A DNA stretch of 64,000 nucleotides, taken from Leucoraja ocellata (lineage: Eukaryota). Each line of letters starts with the position of its first letter. Positions within the stretch are counted from its first letter, which is position 1. The stretch is from positions 5,084,001 to 5,148,000 of the forward strand of contig JAWMAR010000065.1 in the NCBI GenBank assembly GCA_036785375.1, read 5' to 3'. The position numbers are program-made. Positions 48,401 to 60,400 of the stretch are shown piece by piece.

Positions 48401-51400
48401 ATATTAATGTATTTTATCCACACCAGGAGTGTAAAAGCATGTAGGAAGGAACTGCAGATGCTGGTTTATACCGAAGATAGACACAAAATGCAGGAATACT
48501 CAACGGGTCAGGCAGCATCTCTGGAGAAAAAGAAAAGGTGATGTTTAGGGTAGGAACTTGAAACATCACTTTTTGATTTTTCTCCAGAGACACTGCCTGA
48601 CCCACTGAGTTGCTTTGTGCACTTTGTGTTTATAAAGGCTTTGTGTTGTAAGGGCATCATTTTCCAGGAGGCCTCTGCTACACAAAAGTGATAAAATGAT
48701 TCCACATCACAAATGGACAGAATTTTTTTCTAACACAATTGTTCATATAGATGCAGACTTTGAAACAGAACATGTTACTTAACGTCTACCAATCATAGAT
48801 TCAAATATTTCAATTGCTTAACATCACAGCCTCTTTGGAGAGAGAGAATAATTTTCTCTAAATCGCAGGAATGCAGCCTAATATTTTATTACCTGGCATT
48901 GTCGTTAACCCTTTAAACCCCAGAATCATTGCACAACATCCCCACCTAAGCCAATATGTCTTGCCTGTAGCGAGAATGCTCAGAACTGAAGACAATGGGA
49001 GTAATCCATATCCTCTTTGCATTCCAGTTCTCACGAGAACAAAATATTAGCTTTTTTGATTATTTTTAGAATTCACATTCAAAGGCTTGTGTGCATTGAC
49101 TCCCAATTTGTTTTGGCTCCATCATGATTCCTTGTCTCTTATGGATTCCAAATGATTTTTATATTACATTATATTAAATCATGCTGATTTGTCTCCCTTG
49201 GATTCAAAATGAATTGCTTAACACATCTCCATCAAGAAATGTATGAGTCTTTCCTGCTCAATTAATAAGTCAAAACCAGTGGTGAACTTCAAAGGGTTGC
49301 CATCAACCAGCACATTAAGTGCAAACCTAACATTATGGATTTCCCCGTTGTCAAAGCACTCCCAATTTTCAATAGCAATGACATAATACCTTGACATGGT
49401 CATGGACGTGAGGTTTGCAAGACAACTCGCGACCGTGAAATAACCAAAAAAATCTTTGACACTCACCTATGTTAGTCTAACCTACATAAACTAATGACAT
49501 TTCTGAGTGCCTCAGAAATTCATATTCAAAAATTATTTAAATCAATAAACCATATGGAGAACCATGAGCTATATTTTAAAAGTAAACTAAATAAAGGAAT
49601 ACTTTAGAATTAAAAAAAAATAACTTGACAAAACTCAGTTTTAAATGTATAGATTACATTACCTTGTTCCTGAGCCTGACTGAACCAAACCTTTCCAAAG
49701 CGATTCCACCTGAAAGCAGAATACTGAGGAAAATTTACCTGAGGCACCAGTTTGTTTACTGTAATGCATTAAAAAAACCCCAGTAAGCCAAAGGGTTCTA
49801 CATGAGTGGAAATCAGTCAATGGTGGCCAAGGAAGGCCGAAAGAGAAGACTTTATTTCCTTTTCCACCGATAGGACAAAGATGGCCAGTCAAGCTTTGAG
49901 AAGAAAAATGTTGTCTTTCAGACGTCAAGGAGCGCCACCAAGGAGTGGCTAAGAGTGTGGGGGAGTCTGCAGACATATAGATCTCAAGGTGTCATCCTTC
50001 ATTATGCTCTTGACCATATCTGGTTAGGGCCCTGTTGGGAAGACTGCAGTCACAGTAGGATTCAATGTTAGCATGCTTTGAAGTTATGGTGAAAGTCCAA
50101 GTAACTGGAAGGCAGCAGCTGGTTTTTGGATGTTAGCACATGTATGCATTCACTTTCTCCTTAACCAATAAGCCATTGTCAGTAGTCTTTTGGGCAACAG
50201 CACCTCTATTGCACCTGAATTTATAAAGTGTTCACCTTGTGTGCCATACCATGCCGAAGCCAAAGTGAAATACAATGTTTATATTAAAGTTGACCTGGAT
50301 TCACTTTGATTTGGCTATCACCACAACAGGTTAACAACTGCTACCTCACTCAGTCTTCACTCTGCTTTGGACCATCTGGATACCAGGAACACATATATCA
50401 GGCTGCTGTCCATCTACTACAGCTTACCATTCATCATAACAATCTTCCAAGCTCATCACATAGTTTCAAGACCTGGACCTTGGTACTTTCCTCTGCAACT
50501 GGATCCTTAACTTCCTCATCGGCCAACCTCAATCAATGTGGATCGGAAACATAATCTCATCCTCACTGACCATCAACAAGGCTGTGTTATCTCTGTTACC
50601 TAGGTAACCTAAGGTAGACACAAAATGCCTGACGGGCAGCATCTCTGGAGAGAAGGAATGGGTGACGTTTCAGGTCATGACGCTTCTTCAGATTAGAGTC
50701 AGGGGAAAGGGAAACGTGAGATATAGATGGTGCAGTAGAGAGATAAAGAACAAATGAATGATAGATATGCAAAAAGGTAACAGGCCATTCTTAGCTGTTT
50801 GCTAGGTGACAATGAGAAGCTTGTGTGACTTGGGTGCGGGTGGGATGGAGTGAGAGTTACTTGAAGTTTGAGAAATCCATATTCATACCACTGGGCTGTA
50901 AGCTGCCCAAGCGAAATATGAGATGTTCTTCCTCCAATTTGCTTATAGCGTCACTCTGACATTGAAGGAGGCCTGGCAGAAAGGTCAGTGTGGGAATGGG
51001 AAGGGAAATTAAAGTGTTTGGCAACCGGGAGATCAGTTAGGTCTGGGCGGACTGAGCGAAGGTGTTCAGCGAAACGATCTCCAGTCGACGTTTGGTCTTC
51101 CCAATATAAGAGTTCATATCTTGAACAATGGATACAGAAGGTGAGGTTGGGGGAGGTGCAAGTGAACCTCTACTTAACTTGAAAGGACTGTTGGGGGTCC
51201 CTGGACGGAGTCGATGGAGGAGGTATTGTTGTAATAACTGAAGCCTTACACCATGATAAAGGTCCAAATACTTTATTAACGACATAGCATATATAACTTC
51301 ATACTAGCATGTCTTTCTAATTCTAAAGGAAACAGGCAGGGAGGACAACTGTAAAAGCAGGTGGGCGTAACTACCAAAGCATGACTCATAACATGAGTGA

Positions 51401-57400: not shown

Positions 57401-60400
57401 ATCATAGTAGATGATATCCTCATTACTGGAAGAGCGGTCGAAGAACACGATGCCAATCTGACAAAGGTCTTGGATCATGCCAAGGCCATCGATCTCAAGC
57501 TGAATCCTCAAAAATGCAAATTCAGAGTGAATTTGCAATTTGTGAAACACTTAGGCCATATATTTAGCAAAGATGGTCTAAAAACTGATCTAGCGACAAC
57601 CAGTGCTATCAATGTGCTCCCAGCACCCACAGACGTGCTGAGTTTGCAGAGATTCCTTGGCATGGTTAACTATTTGAGCAAATTCATTCCGGGTTTCAGC
57701 AAAATATCAGCCCCATTGCGCCATCTTACACACAAAGACACTGCTAGGACTTGGCATGAGCAACAACAGAAAGCGTTCAACACACTTAAGCAGCAGATGT
57801 CTAGTGCTCCTACACTGGCTTACTTTGATCCTAAACTACAGGTTACACTGACTTGTGATGCCTCACAACACAGGCTAGGTGCAGCATTTCTTCTGAATGA
57901 TGGCAATGGCAATAAGCCTGTTGCCTATGCCTCGTGCACTATGACTGACACAGAACAATGATATGCCCAAAGTGAGAAAGAGCTGCTAGTGGTTGTTTTC
58001 ACCTGCAAGAAATTCAACAATTTCATCTTTGGTTACACGGTCACAATTGAAGCGGACCAGCAACCTCTGATCAGCATTTTCAACAAACCAATCCATGCCT
58101 CTCCTGCGAGCCTACAGCAGATGTTACTGTAACTTCAAAAATATGACATCATTCTGATCCACAAGCGCGGTAAGGATATGCACCTGGCTGACATTCTCTC
58201 GTGTGCACCACGGAAGACCTGCGAGGATCCGCCCTCACCGGATGATGACTTTCTGGTAATGACTGTGTGTTTTATTCCCTCGTCTTGTATGGAGGACTTG
58301 GTTGCCCACACTGCTGCTGACAGTACTCTACGGTCGCTTACCTCCGTCATTAAGCGCGGCTGGCCAGACAAGTACTACAACGTTCCGCTGCCAGTCCGGC
58401 CTTTCTTTGCTGTTTGTGATGAGCTGGTGCTGCAGGTTGGCATTGTTTTAAAAGTACACAAGGCTGTGGTTCCTGCTTCGCTGCACAACCAGTATTTTAA
58501 CGCTGTCCATGCATGGCACCCACGCGCTGAAGCTACTGTCTTATGGGCAAGAAGCATGTTTTACTCGCCTGGCATGGCCGAATACATCACCGAGAATGTG
58601 GCATCCTGTGCAGTGTGCAACAGTTTGGCACCTCAACAACAAAAGCAACCACTTATTTCACATCCGGTACTTGCTCTCCAATGGTCTACAGTCACAGCTG
58701 ACATATTTGATTGGCATGGCAAGCTGTACTTGGTGCTCGTTGATTCGTATTCAGGATGGTTTGACATTGATTTTCTTAGCAGCCCCACTTCCAGCAAACG
58801 AGACAAGAGATGCAGCTGTTGGAGATACCGTCTCATTTCCAAATGGAGGCGTGGGTTCGTATCCCACTTCTGACACCATGTTGTATTTCGGCTGTTGTGA
58901 TAACTGAAGCCTTACACCATGATAAAGGTACAAAGACTTTATTAATGACATAACATATATAACTTCATACTAGCATGTCTTTTTAATTCTAAAGGGAACA
59001 GGCAGGGAGGATTACTGCAAAAGCAAGTGGACGTAACTACCAAAGCATGACTCATAACATGAGTGACATTGATCTACAGGTATATGGTCAGATGTTGCAT
59101 CTCCTGCGGTTGCAGGGGAAGGTCCTTGGGGAGGGGTTGGTTAGGCTGGGAAGGGATGTTAACCAGGGAGTTGCGGAGGGAACGGTCCCTGTGGAAGGCG
59201 AAAAGGGTTGGAGATGAGAAGATGTGTCTAGGAGTGGGATCCTATTGGAGTCGGCAAAAATGTCAGAGGATTGTGTGCTGTATGTGACGGCTGATGGGAT
59301 GACTAGGGGGACTGTCCCTTTTGCTACTAGGGAGAGGGGGAGCAAGGGCAGAGTGGTTGGATTCTGAGGAGACACGTGTGAGGGCCTCATTTATGATGGA
59401 AGAGGGGAACCCCCATTTGCTACAGATACAGCATAGACAGAGGAATTGGGAGTAGGGGATAGAATCTTTGCAGGAAGCTGGGTGGGAAGAAGTGTAGTTT
59501 GTCTCAATATTATGAAGAACCCTCCCAGCTGTGGGTTACCAGAGAAACAAGTTGGGTCTGCTCTCCACACATTTTCCTGAAGGATTTTGAAAAGGATTAA
59601 GAATTGATTCTTAAATTCAATCACAATAATACAGGTGATAGATGTGCATCTAGAAACTCATGTGAACATGGTGTGTGTGTGTATGGGTCTGAGGGTAGGA
59701 TGGGTGTGGTGGAAGCAGGTACATGAATGAAATTTTAATTCCTTTCTTCACCCACCCATCTCCTGGCTTGATATGTTCTCGCAGGTGAATTAAAATTATT
59801 GTTGTGCTCGGTTTAAATGCAACTTGGAGATTTTAAATAGATCTTTGTTTTCACATAAAATGAGTGAAGAATTTCCACTCATAAAATGTAAATGAAGTAA
59901 CAGTGCAGGGGTTGAGAGCATGGCGCATTATTAGAGGTGCTATCCTTCAAATTACAAACATTAAAGTGATGAGTTATCTGCCCTCTTAGGTTGAAGCTAG
60001 AAATCCTATGATAACAAAAGCAGAAATGTTCATCTAGTTGTATGAACCTACACATATCCATCAACCAACAACACTCATGGAGATTAATGGTTCTCCTCTC
60101 ATTGTTTTTTGGAGGATTTGCCTGGGTGTAAATTGGTTGCCAGACAAAATACTTGCCTGTTCAATGCTTTGGGACGTCCCGAAACTATGAAAGGTATGGT
60201 TTAAATGCCAGTTGTTTCTTCAGTAAAATATAACGATTAACTTACTGAAGAAGAATCGTCTGTTTGAGAACATAATACTTTGATATTAAATGGCCACTCT
60301 CTGCAAGTGCTGCTAAAGGCTTGGAACTAAAACAACACTGTAAGCGATCTTACACCATACATTCCATTGCTTATCTAAAATGCCATTCTTCCTTATCGTG

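What the first reader, a model, noticed from the sequence alone, without database searches (positions are those of the whole stretch)
51227..59078. Gypsy A is internally scrambled yet has intact LTR pair and perfect TSD
Order on the element strand: 5'LTR, extended PBS, 45-bp protease piece, antisense IN-N/RNaseH/RT (58790 to 52511), tRNA tract, gag end-protease-RT start (52485 to 51792), integrase tail, PPT, 3'LTR. The RT-IN block is both inverted and moved ahead of the block that should precede it; the two blocks share AGTGAAC at the break; most of gag and the integrase core are lost. A single inversion cannot give this order, yet the ends were integrated normally (GGTAT TSD). Inference: a multiply template-switched cDNA that remained integration-competent.
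Basis: partly seen in the sequence, partly recalled or inferred. Interest (0 to 1): 0.68.

Follow-up and report, generated by a model that had tools for sequence, protein, structure and literature searches.

The report
Nested, internally flipped Gypsy retrotransposon remnants
This is a decayed Gypsy-type retrotransposon whose interior is partly flipped, later hit by two more mobile elements, one flipped inside in the same way: an ordinary genomic fossil with an unusually informative structure.

Summary
The LTR pair (51227-51412 / 58879-59078, 92.5-93% identical), the perfect 5-bp duplication GGTAT, the PBS and the PPT are real. The 7.85-kb "element" is three elements, though.

- **Element A:** the outer Ty3/Gypsy copy on the minus strand has only about 3.36 kb of its own sequence.
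- **LINE fragment:** a 1.12-kb 5'-truncated fragment lies inside A's plus-strand RT, with a ~9-bp duplication.
- **Element B:** a second, younger Gypsy copy of 3.36 kb also lies inside A's RT. Its LTRs are 96.8% identical and its duplication is ATTCA/ATTCG.

With these set aside, A is still rearranged. Its RT-RNase H-integrase N-terminal block lies antisense to its LTRs. That block is flanked by a 48-nt protease piece (9-nt microhomology) and by a 25-27-nt inverted PBS/tRNA-like tract. The next deletion junction has 6-7-nt microhomology. B independently shows a simpler sense-antisense-sense layout. In both elements the ends of the opposed blocks meet at nearly the same codon.

The best reading (about 0.45) is polarity-switching template jumps during reverse transcription, before integration. 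Post-integration repair (about 0.3) is not excluded. No public protein shares any of the three junctions tested, and no eukaryotic DNA collection was available. This is a known kind of defective retroelement and of modest interest.

The parts
51222..51226 (.). Target-site duplication of element A, left copy (GGTAT)
   Evidence: Identical to 59079-59083.
51227..51412 (-). Element A, 3' LTR (186 nt)
   Evidence: 13-14 mismatches to the other LTR. It is 14 nt shorter than the 5' LTR at its U5 end, where both LTRs of B carry the extra 14 nt.
51413..51792 (-). Element A, polypurine tract next to the LTR plus the remnant of the integrase C-terminal tail (about aa 1215-1309 of reference P0001)
   Evidence: 78% identical to the matching part of B at 54127-54513. 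P0133 matches it from its residue 50 on. The purine tract was read.
51793..52485 (-). Element A, gag-end / protease / RT-start fragment (about aa 235-497 of P0001), in the same sense as the LTRs
   Evidence: tblastn with 48 of 48 reference gag-pol proteins. The Pfam Asp_protease_2 match is weak, E 0.006, below the cut-off. One frameshift and no stop were counted.
52484..52510 (+). Internal tRNA-3'-end complement (PBS-like tract, 25 nt, plus 2 nt that match the LTR end), inverted relative to A's own PBS
   Evidence: 24 of 27 identical to the inverted 58854-58880.
52511..58795 (+). Element A, RT - RNase H - integrase N-terminal gene fragment (aa 496 to about 1035 of P0001), antisense to A's LTRs and broken by two nested insertions
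   Evidence: Pfam RVT_1, RT_RNaseH_2, RT_RNaseH and Integrase_H2C2. tblastn and BLASTP to P0001. Two nested insertions, two in-frame stops and no frameshift were counted.
52646..53765 (-). Nested 5'-truncated LINE fragment (RT C-terminal half, 3' region, (AGTCA)n tail on the plus strand), flanked by AAGGACTTA (52637-52645) and AAGGCTTA (53766-53773)
   Evidence: Pfam RVT_1 (1.4e-14) and ALKBH8_N (3.2e-12) on one minus-strand reading frame. Tandem repeat. Flanks read. The matching stretch of B is uninterrupted.
53940..57297 (-). Nested element B, a related Ty3/Gypsy copy of 3358 nt. LTRs at 53940-54126 and 57103-57297; duplication ATTCA (53935-53939) / ATTCG (57298-57302)
   Evidence: LTR pair has 6 mismatches plus 2 gap events, 96.8%. 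The host RT reads ...TPF | FGCY... across the insertion, and B's own RT reads it unbroken. Bounds.
54127..55213 (-). B: polypurine tract, integrase core and C-terminus (about aa 1005-1309), in the sense of B's LTRs
   Evidence: Pfam rve. 69% identity to P0001 over 139 aa.. 1-2 frameshifts, at least 2 stops and one short tandem duplication were counted.
55214..56233 (+). B: gag-end / protease / first half of RT (about aa 267-625), antisense to B's LTRs
   Evidence: Pfam RVT_1. One frameshift and 2 stops were counted.
56244..57024 (-). B: gag (aa 1 to about 268), in the sense of B's LTRs. About 10-36 nt of unassigned filler lie between it and the plus-strand block
   Evidence: One frameshift and one stop were counted.
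57070..57102 (-). B: PBS and a decayed tRNA-like extension next to the 5' LTR
58787..58834 (-). Element A, 48-nt protease piece (about aa 342-358), a direct copy of 52097-52144. Its first 9 nt overlap the end of the plus-strand integrase block
   Evidence: 45 of 48 identical. The overlap was read and against B's integrase.
58835..58878 (-). Element A, 13-nt leader remnant and a PBS extended to 31 nt of tRNA-like sequence (acceptor 3' strand plus the whole T arm)
   Evidence: Homology to B's PBS region.
58879..59078 (-). Element A, 5' LTR (200 nt)
59079..59083 (.). Target-site duplication of element A, right copy (GGTAT)

Best explanation
**Shown: a nest of three retroelements**
- An old Ty3/Gypsy copy, A, lies on the minus strand with duplication GGTAT.
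- A was later hit in its RT by a 5'-truncated LINE fragment.
- A was also hit by a younger, related Gypsy copy, B.
- A's own 3.36 kb reads, on its sense strand: LTR, PBS, 13 nt of leader, a 48-nt protease piece, then RT-RNase H-integrase N-terminus in antisense. Next come an inverted PBS-like tract, gag-end/protease/RT-start in sense, the integrase tail, PPT and LTR.
- B reads: LTR, PBS, gag in sense, gag-end/protease/half of RT in antisense, integrase core and tail in sense, PPT and LTR.

**Inferred: when and how the rearrangements arose**
- Both rearrangements arose while the cDNA was being made, by jumps of the growing DNA end.
- Some jumps went to a template of the same polarity and gave deletions at short repeats.
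- Twice per element the jump went to a template of the opposite polarity and gave the antisense block.
- LTR ends, PBS and PPT had to stay whole for integration, so only such products were integrated, each with a normal duplication.

**Why the opposed blocks end at the same codon (my inference)**
- A growing plus strand may meet the 5' end of a downstream plus-strand segment and jump onto the displaced strand.
- It would copy that strand back to its 5' end and then have to jump again.

Both copies then decayed by point breaks.
For: **Anatomy**
- LTR pairs, duplications, PBS and PPT.
- Block map against 48 of 48 full-length reference gag-pol proteins.
- Nested insertions shown by their duplications and by uninterrupted counterparts.
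- B's LTRs are less diverged than A's (6 against 13-14 mismatches in 186), which fits the nesting order.

**Mechanism**
1. Every rearrangement junction lies inside its own element, in 2 of 2 elements. None involves host DNA, the LINE, an LTR, or the other element.
2. The junctions carry 9-nt and 6-7-nt microhomology.
3. One junction holds a 25-27-nt PBS/tRNA-derived tract. tRNA-derived inserts of 7-54 nt at deletion junctions of integrated proviruses are documented (PMC12657518, passages).
4. The opposed blocks end within 7 nt of each other in A, and within about 15 nt of the canonical sequence in B.
5. Pieces duplicated inside A differ at 6 of 75 sites, like the LTRs (14 of 186). At half that rate, P(>=6) is 0.063.
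6. 'Internal inversion' is a recognised class of defective integrated provirus (PMC8473067, passages).
Against: - Microhomology and short templated fillers from nearby sequence, in either orientation, are also what post-integration end joining or replication template switching leaves.
- A needs about five jumps, which is many for one cDNA.
- The PBS-like tract may include 2 nt of the LTR end. That would fit copying from any U5-PBS template, including the integrated element itself.
- The dating test rests on 75 nt.
- The confinement argument is biased, because the finding was picked for its intact ends.
- No second copy with the same junctions was found. 0 of 12, 0 of 1 candidate and 0 of 3 protein hits span the three junctions tested. 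This neither helps nor hurts a one-off cDNA error.
- Read support was not available.
Confidence: 0.45

Rival explanations
1. Post-integration rearrangement. A and B were integrated as ordinary or merely deleted copies. They were later scrambled in place by multi-break repair or replication-based template switching, with short templated fillers.
For: - Junction microhomology of 6-9 nt.
- Fillers copied from sequence a few hundred to a few thousand nt away, one of them inverted.
- A's filler may span the LTR/PBS boundary.
- The locus is a nest of insertions, so it tolerates change.
Against: - Two separate events would each have to stay inside one element and spare both LTRs, PBS, PPT and duplications, in 2 of 2 elements.
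- A's junctions involve neither the LINE nor B.
- Plain break-and-join cannot make the internal duplicates (48 nt and 25-27 nt), so copying is needed.
- Those duplicates are as diverged as the LTRs.
- Recombination between B and its inverted host RT would flip one B LTR, and that is not seen.
Confidence: 0.3
2. Inherited rearrangement. The scrambling happened in an earlier copy, and A and/or B are offspring of an already rearranged, non-autonomous master copied in trans.
For: - Both copies keep LTRs, PBS and PPT, the parts needed in cis.
- A and B are both about 3.36 kb.
Against: - A and B do not share any junction.
- 0 of 12, 0 of 1 candidate and 0 of 3 public protein hits span the junctions tested. 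This is weak evidence, because the closest relatives found are only 70-83% identical.
- A's internal duplicates are not older than its LTR pair.
Confidence: 0.12
3. Unrelated fragments. The plus-strand block of A is what is left of a third, oppositely oriented Gypsy insertion whose LTRs were deleted. It is not part of A.
For: At same-amino-acid codons, the third base of A's plus-strand block matches B more often than that of A's minus-strand blocks does: 92 of 113 against 121 of 185, Fisher p = 0.0035. This hints at a different lineage.
Against: - At fourfold sites alone the difference is not significant: 33 of 49 against 59 of 98, p = 0.47.
- Reference proteins show the same jump in conservation at this point, 52% against 74-88%.
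- No LTR remnant or duplication of a third element is present.
- The two blocks end at the same heptamer, and the other end has 9-nt microhomology plus a piece of A's own protease.
- A different lineage also fits co-packaged unlike RNAs.
Confidence: 0.06
4. Assembly artefact. The orientation changes are mis-joins between different copies of the family.
For: - The window holds a 133-N gap at 23090-23222, so it is a scaffold.
- Read data were not available.
Against: - The junctions share only 0-9 nt, too little for a graph mis-join.
- The opposed blocks are not copies of one another: 76-92% identity between A and B parts.
- Both elements have matching duplications, and nested insertions split codons cleanly.
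Confidence: 0.07

Closest known systems
Vertebrate Ty3/Gypsy (Metaviridae-like) gag-pol elements annotated 'K02A2.6-like' / 'Gypsy retrotransposon integrase-like protein 1', e.g. P0001 (Mugilogobius chulae, 1311 aa) and P0004 (Oreochromis niloticus, 1351 aa)
   Same: - 64% identity over RT/RNase H and 69% over B's integrase core.
- The same domains are present.
- Short LTRs, a 5-bp duplication, a tRNA-type PBS and a PPT.
   Different: - The references are single uninterrupted gag-pol proteins.
- Here each copy holds only parts of the gene, in two orientations.
Defective integrated proviruses with an internal inversion (a class in near-full-length proviral sequencing; PMC8473067, passages)
   Same: An integrated retroelement with normal ends and an interior segment in the opposite sense.
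   Different: - Those are retroviruses in somatic cells, and the paper gives no mechanism in the passages I saw.
- Here two germ-line retrotransposon fossils are nested in each other.
- In A the order of the blocks is also changed.
Deferred second-strand transfer: read-through into the tRNA primer, then transfer to a downstream site (PMC12657518, passages)
   Same: tRNA-derived sequence beyond the 18-nt PBS sits at a junction, in a provirus with intact LTRs.
   Different: - In the described products the tract follows U5 and leads in sense into downstream sequence.
- A's internal tract has no LTR before it and is inverted relative to A's LTRs.
- The extension at A's own PBS is shared with B, so it is inherited.
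- The supplementary lists of that paper, which I could not see, may show whether inverted tracts occur.
Complex LTR retrotransposons made by template switching and integrated with one duplication (Sabot and Schulman 2007, PMC1950507; abstract and Results read)
   Same: The same logic applies: flanking duplication plus similar outer LTRs points to one integration of an abnormal cDNA.
   Different: - Those are LTR-core-LTR-core-LTR fusions, all in one orientation.
- No polarity switch is described.
5'-inverted LINE-1 copies (twin priming; recalled, and named only in the listing of PMC2912911)
   Same: An inversion made during reverse transcription, with both parts in one insertion and microhomology at the junction.
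   Different: - That is target-primed reverse transcription at the chromosome, with one inversion at the 5' end.
- It has no LTRs, PBS or integrase.

Membership tests
Ty3/Gypsy LTR retrotransposon (elements A and B) | Pair of direct LTRs with TG...CA ends | tested here: met
   A is 92.5-93.0% identical over 186 nt. B is 96.8% identical. Ends were read.
Ty3/Gypsy LTR retrotransposon (elements A and B) | Short target-site duplication directly outside the LTRs | tested here: met
   A has GGTAT / GGTAT, 5 of 5. B has ATTCA / ATTCG, 4 of 5, and B's own uninterrupted RT shows the undisturbed site.
Ty3/Gypsy LTR retrotransposon (elements A and B) | PBS complementary to a tRNA 3' end next to the 5' LTR, and a polypurine tract next to the 3' LTR | tested here: met
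   The tRNA species was not identified: ARAGORN found 0 tRNA genes in the window, and Rfam gave 3 sub-threshold, unrelated matches.
Ty3/Gypsy LTR retrotransposon (elements A and B) | Pol domains protease, RT, RNase H and integrase, in that order on one strand | tested here: not met
   The domains are present: 8 of 113 reading frames hit retroelement Pfam families. They follow that order in the reference numbering. In both copies, however, they lie in blocks of opposite sense and parts are missing. These are rearranged derivatives of the family, not intact members.
Internally inverted defective provirus / retroelement | Normal ends with an interior segment in antisense | tested here: met
   for A and for B.
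Internally inverted defective provirus / retroelement | The rearrangement was made before integration | not testable with these tools
   This needs other copies, orthologous loci or reads. Only indirect support is available.
Deferred second-strand-transfer product | U5 - PBS - further tRNA sequence - deletion junction, in sense | tested here: not met
   The internal tract is not preceded by an LTR and is inverted. The extension at A's own PBS is shared by B, which has a normal leader and gag after it.
Non-LTR (LINE) retrotransposon fragment (52646-53765) | LINE-type RT, 5' truncation, simple-repeat 3' tail, flanking duplication of variable length | tested here: met
   RVT_1 plus ALKBH8_N on one frame. 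(AGTCA)5.6 at the 3' end. A duplication of about 9 bp with one indel. The clade was not determined.
Propagated non-autonomous derivative | The same internal junctions at other loci | tested here: inconclusive
   0 of 10 window reading frames are in the protein collection. 0 of 12, 0 of 1 candidate and 0 of 3 hits span the junctions. The closest relatives are only 70-83% identical, and no eukaryotic DNA collection was on hand.

The most novel reading that the evidence does not exclude
Jumps to a template of the opposite polarity may be a frequent, patterned error in this Gypsy family's reverse transcription. They would start and end at plus-strand discontinuities, which would explain why the opposed blocks meet at one codon. 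The resulting sense-antisense-sense cDNAs would still integrate. Two independent cases nested at one locus would then be a sample of a common class of derivative. That class would also be a built-in source of hairpin RNA against the family.
Probability: 0.15. Interest if true: 0.55.

Novelty: new member of a known kind. Interest (0 to 1): 0.3.

Why it matters
Integrated copies with intact ends and scrambled interiors are natural records of errors in reverse transcription.

- This locus offers two such records side by side, with resolvable junctions: microhomology, a PBS-derived filler, and block ends that meet at one codon.
- A census across the genome could show how often LTR-element cDNAs switch polarity, and where.
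- In practical terms, this is a case where annotation that looks only at LTR pairs and duplications would call one 7.9-kb element where there are three.
- It is also a case where nested insertions can be mistaken for scrambling.

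Tried and rejected
- **Common rearranged ancestor of A and B:** rejected. Their junctions join different residues.
- **B's plus-strand block copied from A's by conversion:** rejected. Identity is only 76% over the protease part and 84-92% over RT.
- **Flipping by recombination between B and its inverted host RT:** rejected. This would flip one B LTR, and both keep the same orientation.
- **Autointegration:** rejected. No LTR end lies at an internal junction.
- **An LTR-end-like 17-mer beside the internal tRNA-like tract:** rejected. 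B's gag has a similar sequence at the matching place, so it is probably coding sequence.
- **A 13-nt direct repeat near that junction:** left open.
- **GTGAAC as a junction hot spot:** the hexamer occurs 12 times in 51227-59078, against 33 in the whole window, which matches the chance expectation of 32.5 for the window. It is common in the family, so the coincidence is weaker than it looks.
- **Difference in A-to-B identity across the junction as proof of two origins:** rejected as proof. Reference proteins show the same conservation step. The synonymous-type test was significant on one measure and not on the other.
- **Rfam and ARAGORN:** nothing of use.
- **Exact look-up of 10 reading frames:** none is in the collection.
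- **Literature search for 'LTR retrotransposon' with 'internal inversion':** 15 papers, 12 listed, none on this topic by title or abstract start.
- **Literature search:** it gave the review PMC6894440 (passages). That review treats same-polarity template switching only, in the passages I saw.

Full report
**Source of the window**

The best named relatives of the element's proteins are teleost fish proteins. The window also carries TCF/LEF-type exons. I take it for a non-human vertebrate contig, probably a fish. The only N run is 23090-23222, and I left it alone.

**1. The observation**

The outer repeat is real. Positions 51227-51412 and 58893-59078 match over 186 nt at 92.5%, E 3e-74.

- An alignment with flanks and exact look-ups place GGTAT directly outside both copies, at 51222-51226 and 59079-59083. 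The termini read TG...CA.
- On the minus strand, a purine tract abuts the low-coordinate LTR, and a tRNA-3'-end complement abuts the high-coordinate LTR.
- The high-coordinate LTR is 14 nt longer at its U5 end. Both LTRs of the inner element carry the matching 14 nt. The PBS therefore abuts the LTR directly, and the other LTR has lost 14 nt.

**2. Three elements, not one**

Self-comparison shows four LTR-like copies in one orientation, not two.

*Domains.* I scanned 113 stop-to-stop reading frames of 50600-59700 against Pfam.

- 11 of the 113 had a family at E <= 0.01, and 8 of these were retroelement families.
- The other 3 were weak matches below their cut-offs (Mgm101p, BES1_N, HTH_NPRL3), and I dropped them.
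I recall this pairing from LINE-type reverse transcriptases.

*The LINE fragment (52646-53765).*

- It ends in (AGTCA)5.6 on the plus strand.
- It is flanked by AAGGACTTA and AAGGCTTA.
- The matching stretch of the inner Gypsy copy is uninterrupted.
- It is therefore a 5'-truncated LINE insertion with its own duplication.

*Element B (53940-57297).*

- Its LTRs lie at 53940-54126 and 57103-57297 and are 96.8% identical, with 6 mismatches and 2 gap events.
- It has its own PBS and PPT.
- It is flanked by ATTCA and ATTCG.
- The host RT reads ...TTFRTPF before it and FGCYTFLRMPFG... after it.
- B's own RT reads TTFSTPFGCYKFLRMPFG without a break.
- B is therefore a nested insertion.
- Its LTRs are about half as diverged as A's, which fits the nesting order.

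*Sizes.* With both insertions set aside, A has 3360 nt of its own and B has 3358 nt.

**3. Map against intact relatives**

The RT/RNase H frame of A finds 449 proteins at E <= 1e-10 among 1229 candidates. The best named ones are P0001 (1311 aa, 64% identity) and P0004 (1351 aa). I ran tblastn with these two and with all 48 hits of at least 1250 aa, of which 48 of 48 matched. Both runs give the same blocks. No further match of this family appears elsewhere in the window.

In P0001 numbering, each element reads on its own sense strand as follows:

| Order | Element A | Element B |
|---|---|---|
| 1 | piece of about aa 342-358, sense | aa 1-268, sense |
| 2 | aa ~1035 down to 496, antisense | aa 625 down to ~267, antisense |
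| 3 | inverted PBS-like tract | aa ~1005-1309, sense |
| 4 | aa ~235-497, sense | |
| 5 | aa ~1215-1309, sense | |

- A lacks most of gag and the integrase core.
- B lacks the second half of RT, RNase H and the integrase N-terminus.
- The protease assignment is weak. One Pfam match at E 0.006 falls below the cut-off, and the rest comes from alignment to the references.

*Point breaks counted:*

| Block | Frameshifts | In-frame stops | Other |
|---|---|---|---|
| A, minus-strand block | 1 | 0 | |
| A, RT-RNase H-integrase block | 0 | 2 | two nested insertions |
| B, gag | 1 | 1 | |
| B, plus-strand block | 1 | 2 | |
| B, integrase | 1-2 | at least 2 | one short tandem duplication |

**4. The junctions**

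*Element A:*

- **End of the integrase block against the protease piece.** The two overlap by 9 nt, ACTTCCAGC. The sequence on either side differs between the two sources.
- **RT start against the integrase tail.** This junction lies at a hexamer that the canonical sequence has at both places, as B shows.
- **The two opposed blocks.** Between them lies a 25-nt complement of a tRNA 3' end. It is inverted relative to A's own PBS and matches it at 22 of 25 positions. With 2 nt of the LTR end included, the match is 24 of 27.
- **Block ends.** The two blocks end at the same heptamer.

*Element B:*

- One junction is clean.
- The other junction holds 10-36 nt for which I found no source in the window.
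- With A's uninterrupted minus-strand block as a guide, B's two blocks end within about 15 nt of each other in the canonical sequence.

*The extended PBS.* A's own PBS runs to 31 nt of tRNA-like sequence, with a complete T arm. B carries the same extension in decayed form, followed by a normal leader and gag. It is a family trait, not a mark of this insertion.

**5. One origin or two for A's blocks?**

- A-to-B identity jumps from 76% in the protease part to 84-92% in RT, exactly at the junction.
- Twelve reference proteins show the same step in conservation, 52% against 74-88%.
- At codons with the same amino acid, the third base is identical in 121 of 185 codons for A's minus-strand blocks against B. 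For A's plus-strand block it is identical in 92 of 113 (Fisher p = 0.0035).
- At fourfold sites alone the figures are 59 of 98 against 33 of 49 (p = 0.47).
- The result is inconclusive. A different lineage for the plus-strand block would fit co-packaged unlike RNAs as well as a separate insertion.

**6. Are the junctions shared elsewhere?**

- None of 10 reading frames is in the protein collection.
- *Frame across A's integrase/protease junction.* Twelve proteins matched. Mapped back, 9 of the 12 match A up to the junction and then carry on into canonical integrase core, as held by B. The other 3 end at or before the junction. None follows A across it. The closest are 76-82% identical.
- *Peptide across B's gag/RT junction.* It found 1 candidate and no hit.
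- *Frame across A's RT/tail junction.* It found 3 proteins in the representative library. The best, P0133, is a canonical integrase C-terminus, 83% identical to B, and it matches A only from the junction on. 0 of 3 span it.
- These are weak negatives, because close copies of either element seem absent from the sets.
- No eukaryotic DNA collection was available, so other loci, orthologous loci and reads stayed unchecked.

**7. Mechanism**

*Shown.* Each rearrangement is confined to the interior of its own element, in 2 of 2 elements. LTRs, PBS, PPT and duplications are intact. Plain cutting and rejoining of one molecule cannot produce A's internal duplicates, so copying was involved.

*Dating.* Those duplicates differ at 6 of 75 sites, like the LTR pair at 14 of 186. 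At half that rate, P(>=6) is 0.063.

*Inferred.* The growing DNA end jumped between templates inside the particle.

- It jumped to the same polarity at short repeats, which gave deletions.
- It jumped twice per element to the opposite polarity, which gave the antisense block.
- A jump onto a displaced plus-strand segment, copied back to its 5' end, would make the opposed blocks end at one position.

*Literature.*

- tRNA-derived inserts at deletion junctions of proviruses with intact LTRs are documented (PMC12657518, passages).
- Internal inversion is a recognised class of defective provirus (PMC8473067, passages).
- Abnormal cDNAs integrated with one duplication are described for plant LTR elements (PMC1950507, abstract and Results).
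- The supplementary lists of PMC12657518, which I could not see, might show whether inverted tRNA tracts occur.

*Main rival.* Post-integration repair or replication template switching leaves the same microhomology and templated fillers. I put the pre-integration reading at about 0.45, or about 0.57 if a rearranged master is included. I put post-integration rearrangement at about 0.3.

**8. Verdict**

The finding is real but over-read. About 4.5 kb of the scramble is nested insertion. What remains is a known kind of defective retroelement, made more informative by a second, independent case nested inside it. Interest is modest.

**Surroundings**

Of 23 reading frames of at least 110 aa outside the region, 2 hit the beta-catenin-binding N-terminus of TCF/LEF proteins, at 42256-43426 on the minus strand. 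I scanned these two frames separately and made no joined exon model. The nest lies about 8 kb from that gene's 5' end, on the side away from its body.

Noticed in passing
window 42256-43426 (-): Two reading frames match the N-terminal beta-catenin-binding domain of TCF/LEF transcription factors (E 2.8e-28 and 4.8e-12). These are probably the first exons of a TCF/LEF-family gene. The retroelement nest lies about 8 kb beyond its 5' end.
   Followed up: partly
window 58848-58878 (-) and 57070-57102 (-): Both Gypsy copies carry a PBS that extends to about 31 nt of tRNA-like sequence, including the T arm. At the T-loop position that is A in the internal tract, both PBS copies have T. This looks like an inherited trace of read-through into the primer. 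The tRNA species was not identified.
   Followed up: partly
window 51227-59078: The hexamer GTGAAC or its complement occurs 12 times here, against 33 in the whole 64 kb. Three of the rearrangement junctions lie at such sites.
   Followed up: partly
window 50611-50701: A short repeat of 58-86 nt has four other copies in the window, in both orientations, at 79-93% identity: 12878-12963, 22914-22975, 32561-32626 and 35886-35943. It is probably a small interspersed repeat.
   Followed up: no
window 51227-59078 and 53940-57297: A's own sequence (3360 nt) and B (3358 nt) are almost the same length, although different parts are missing. This may be chance or a size preference.
   Followed up: no
window 60885-61640 (+): An open frame of 252 aa just beyond the nest has no Pfam match.
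   Followed up: no
window 23090-23222: A run of 133 N, an assembly gap or masked stretch. It was left untouched.
   Followed up: no
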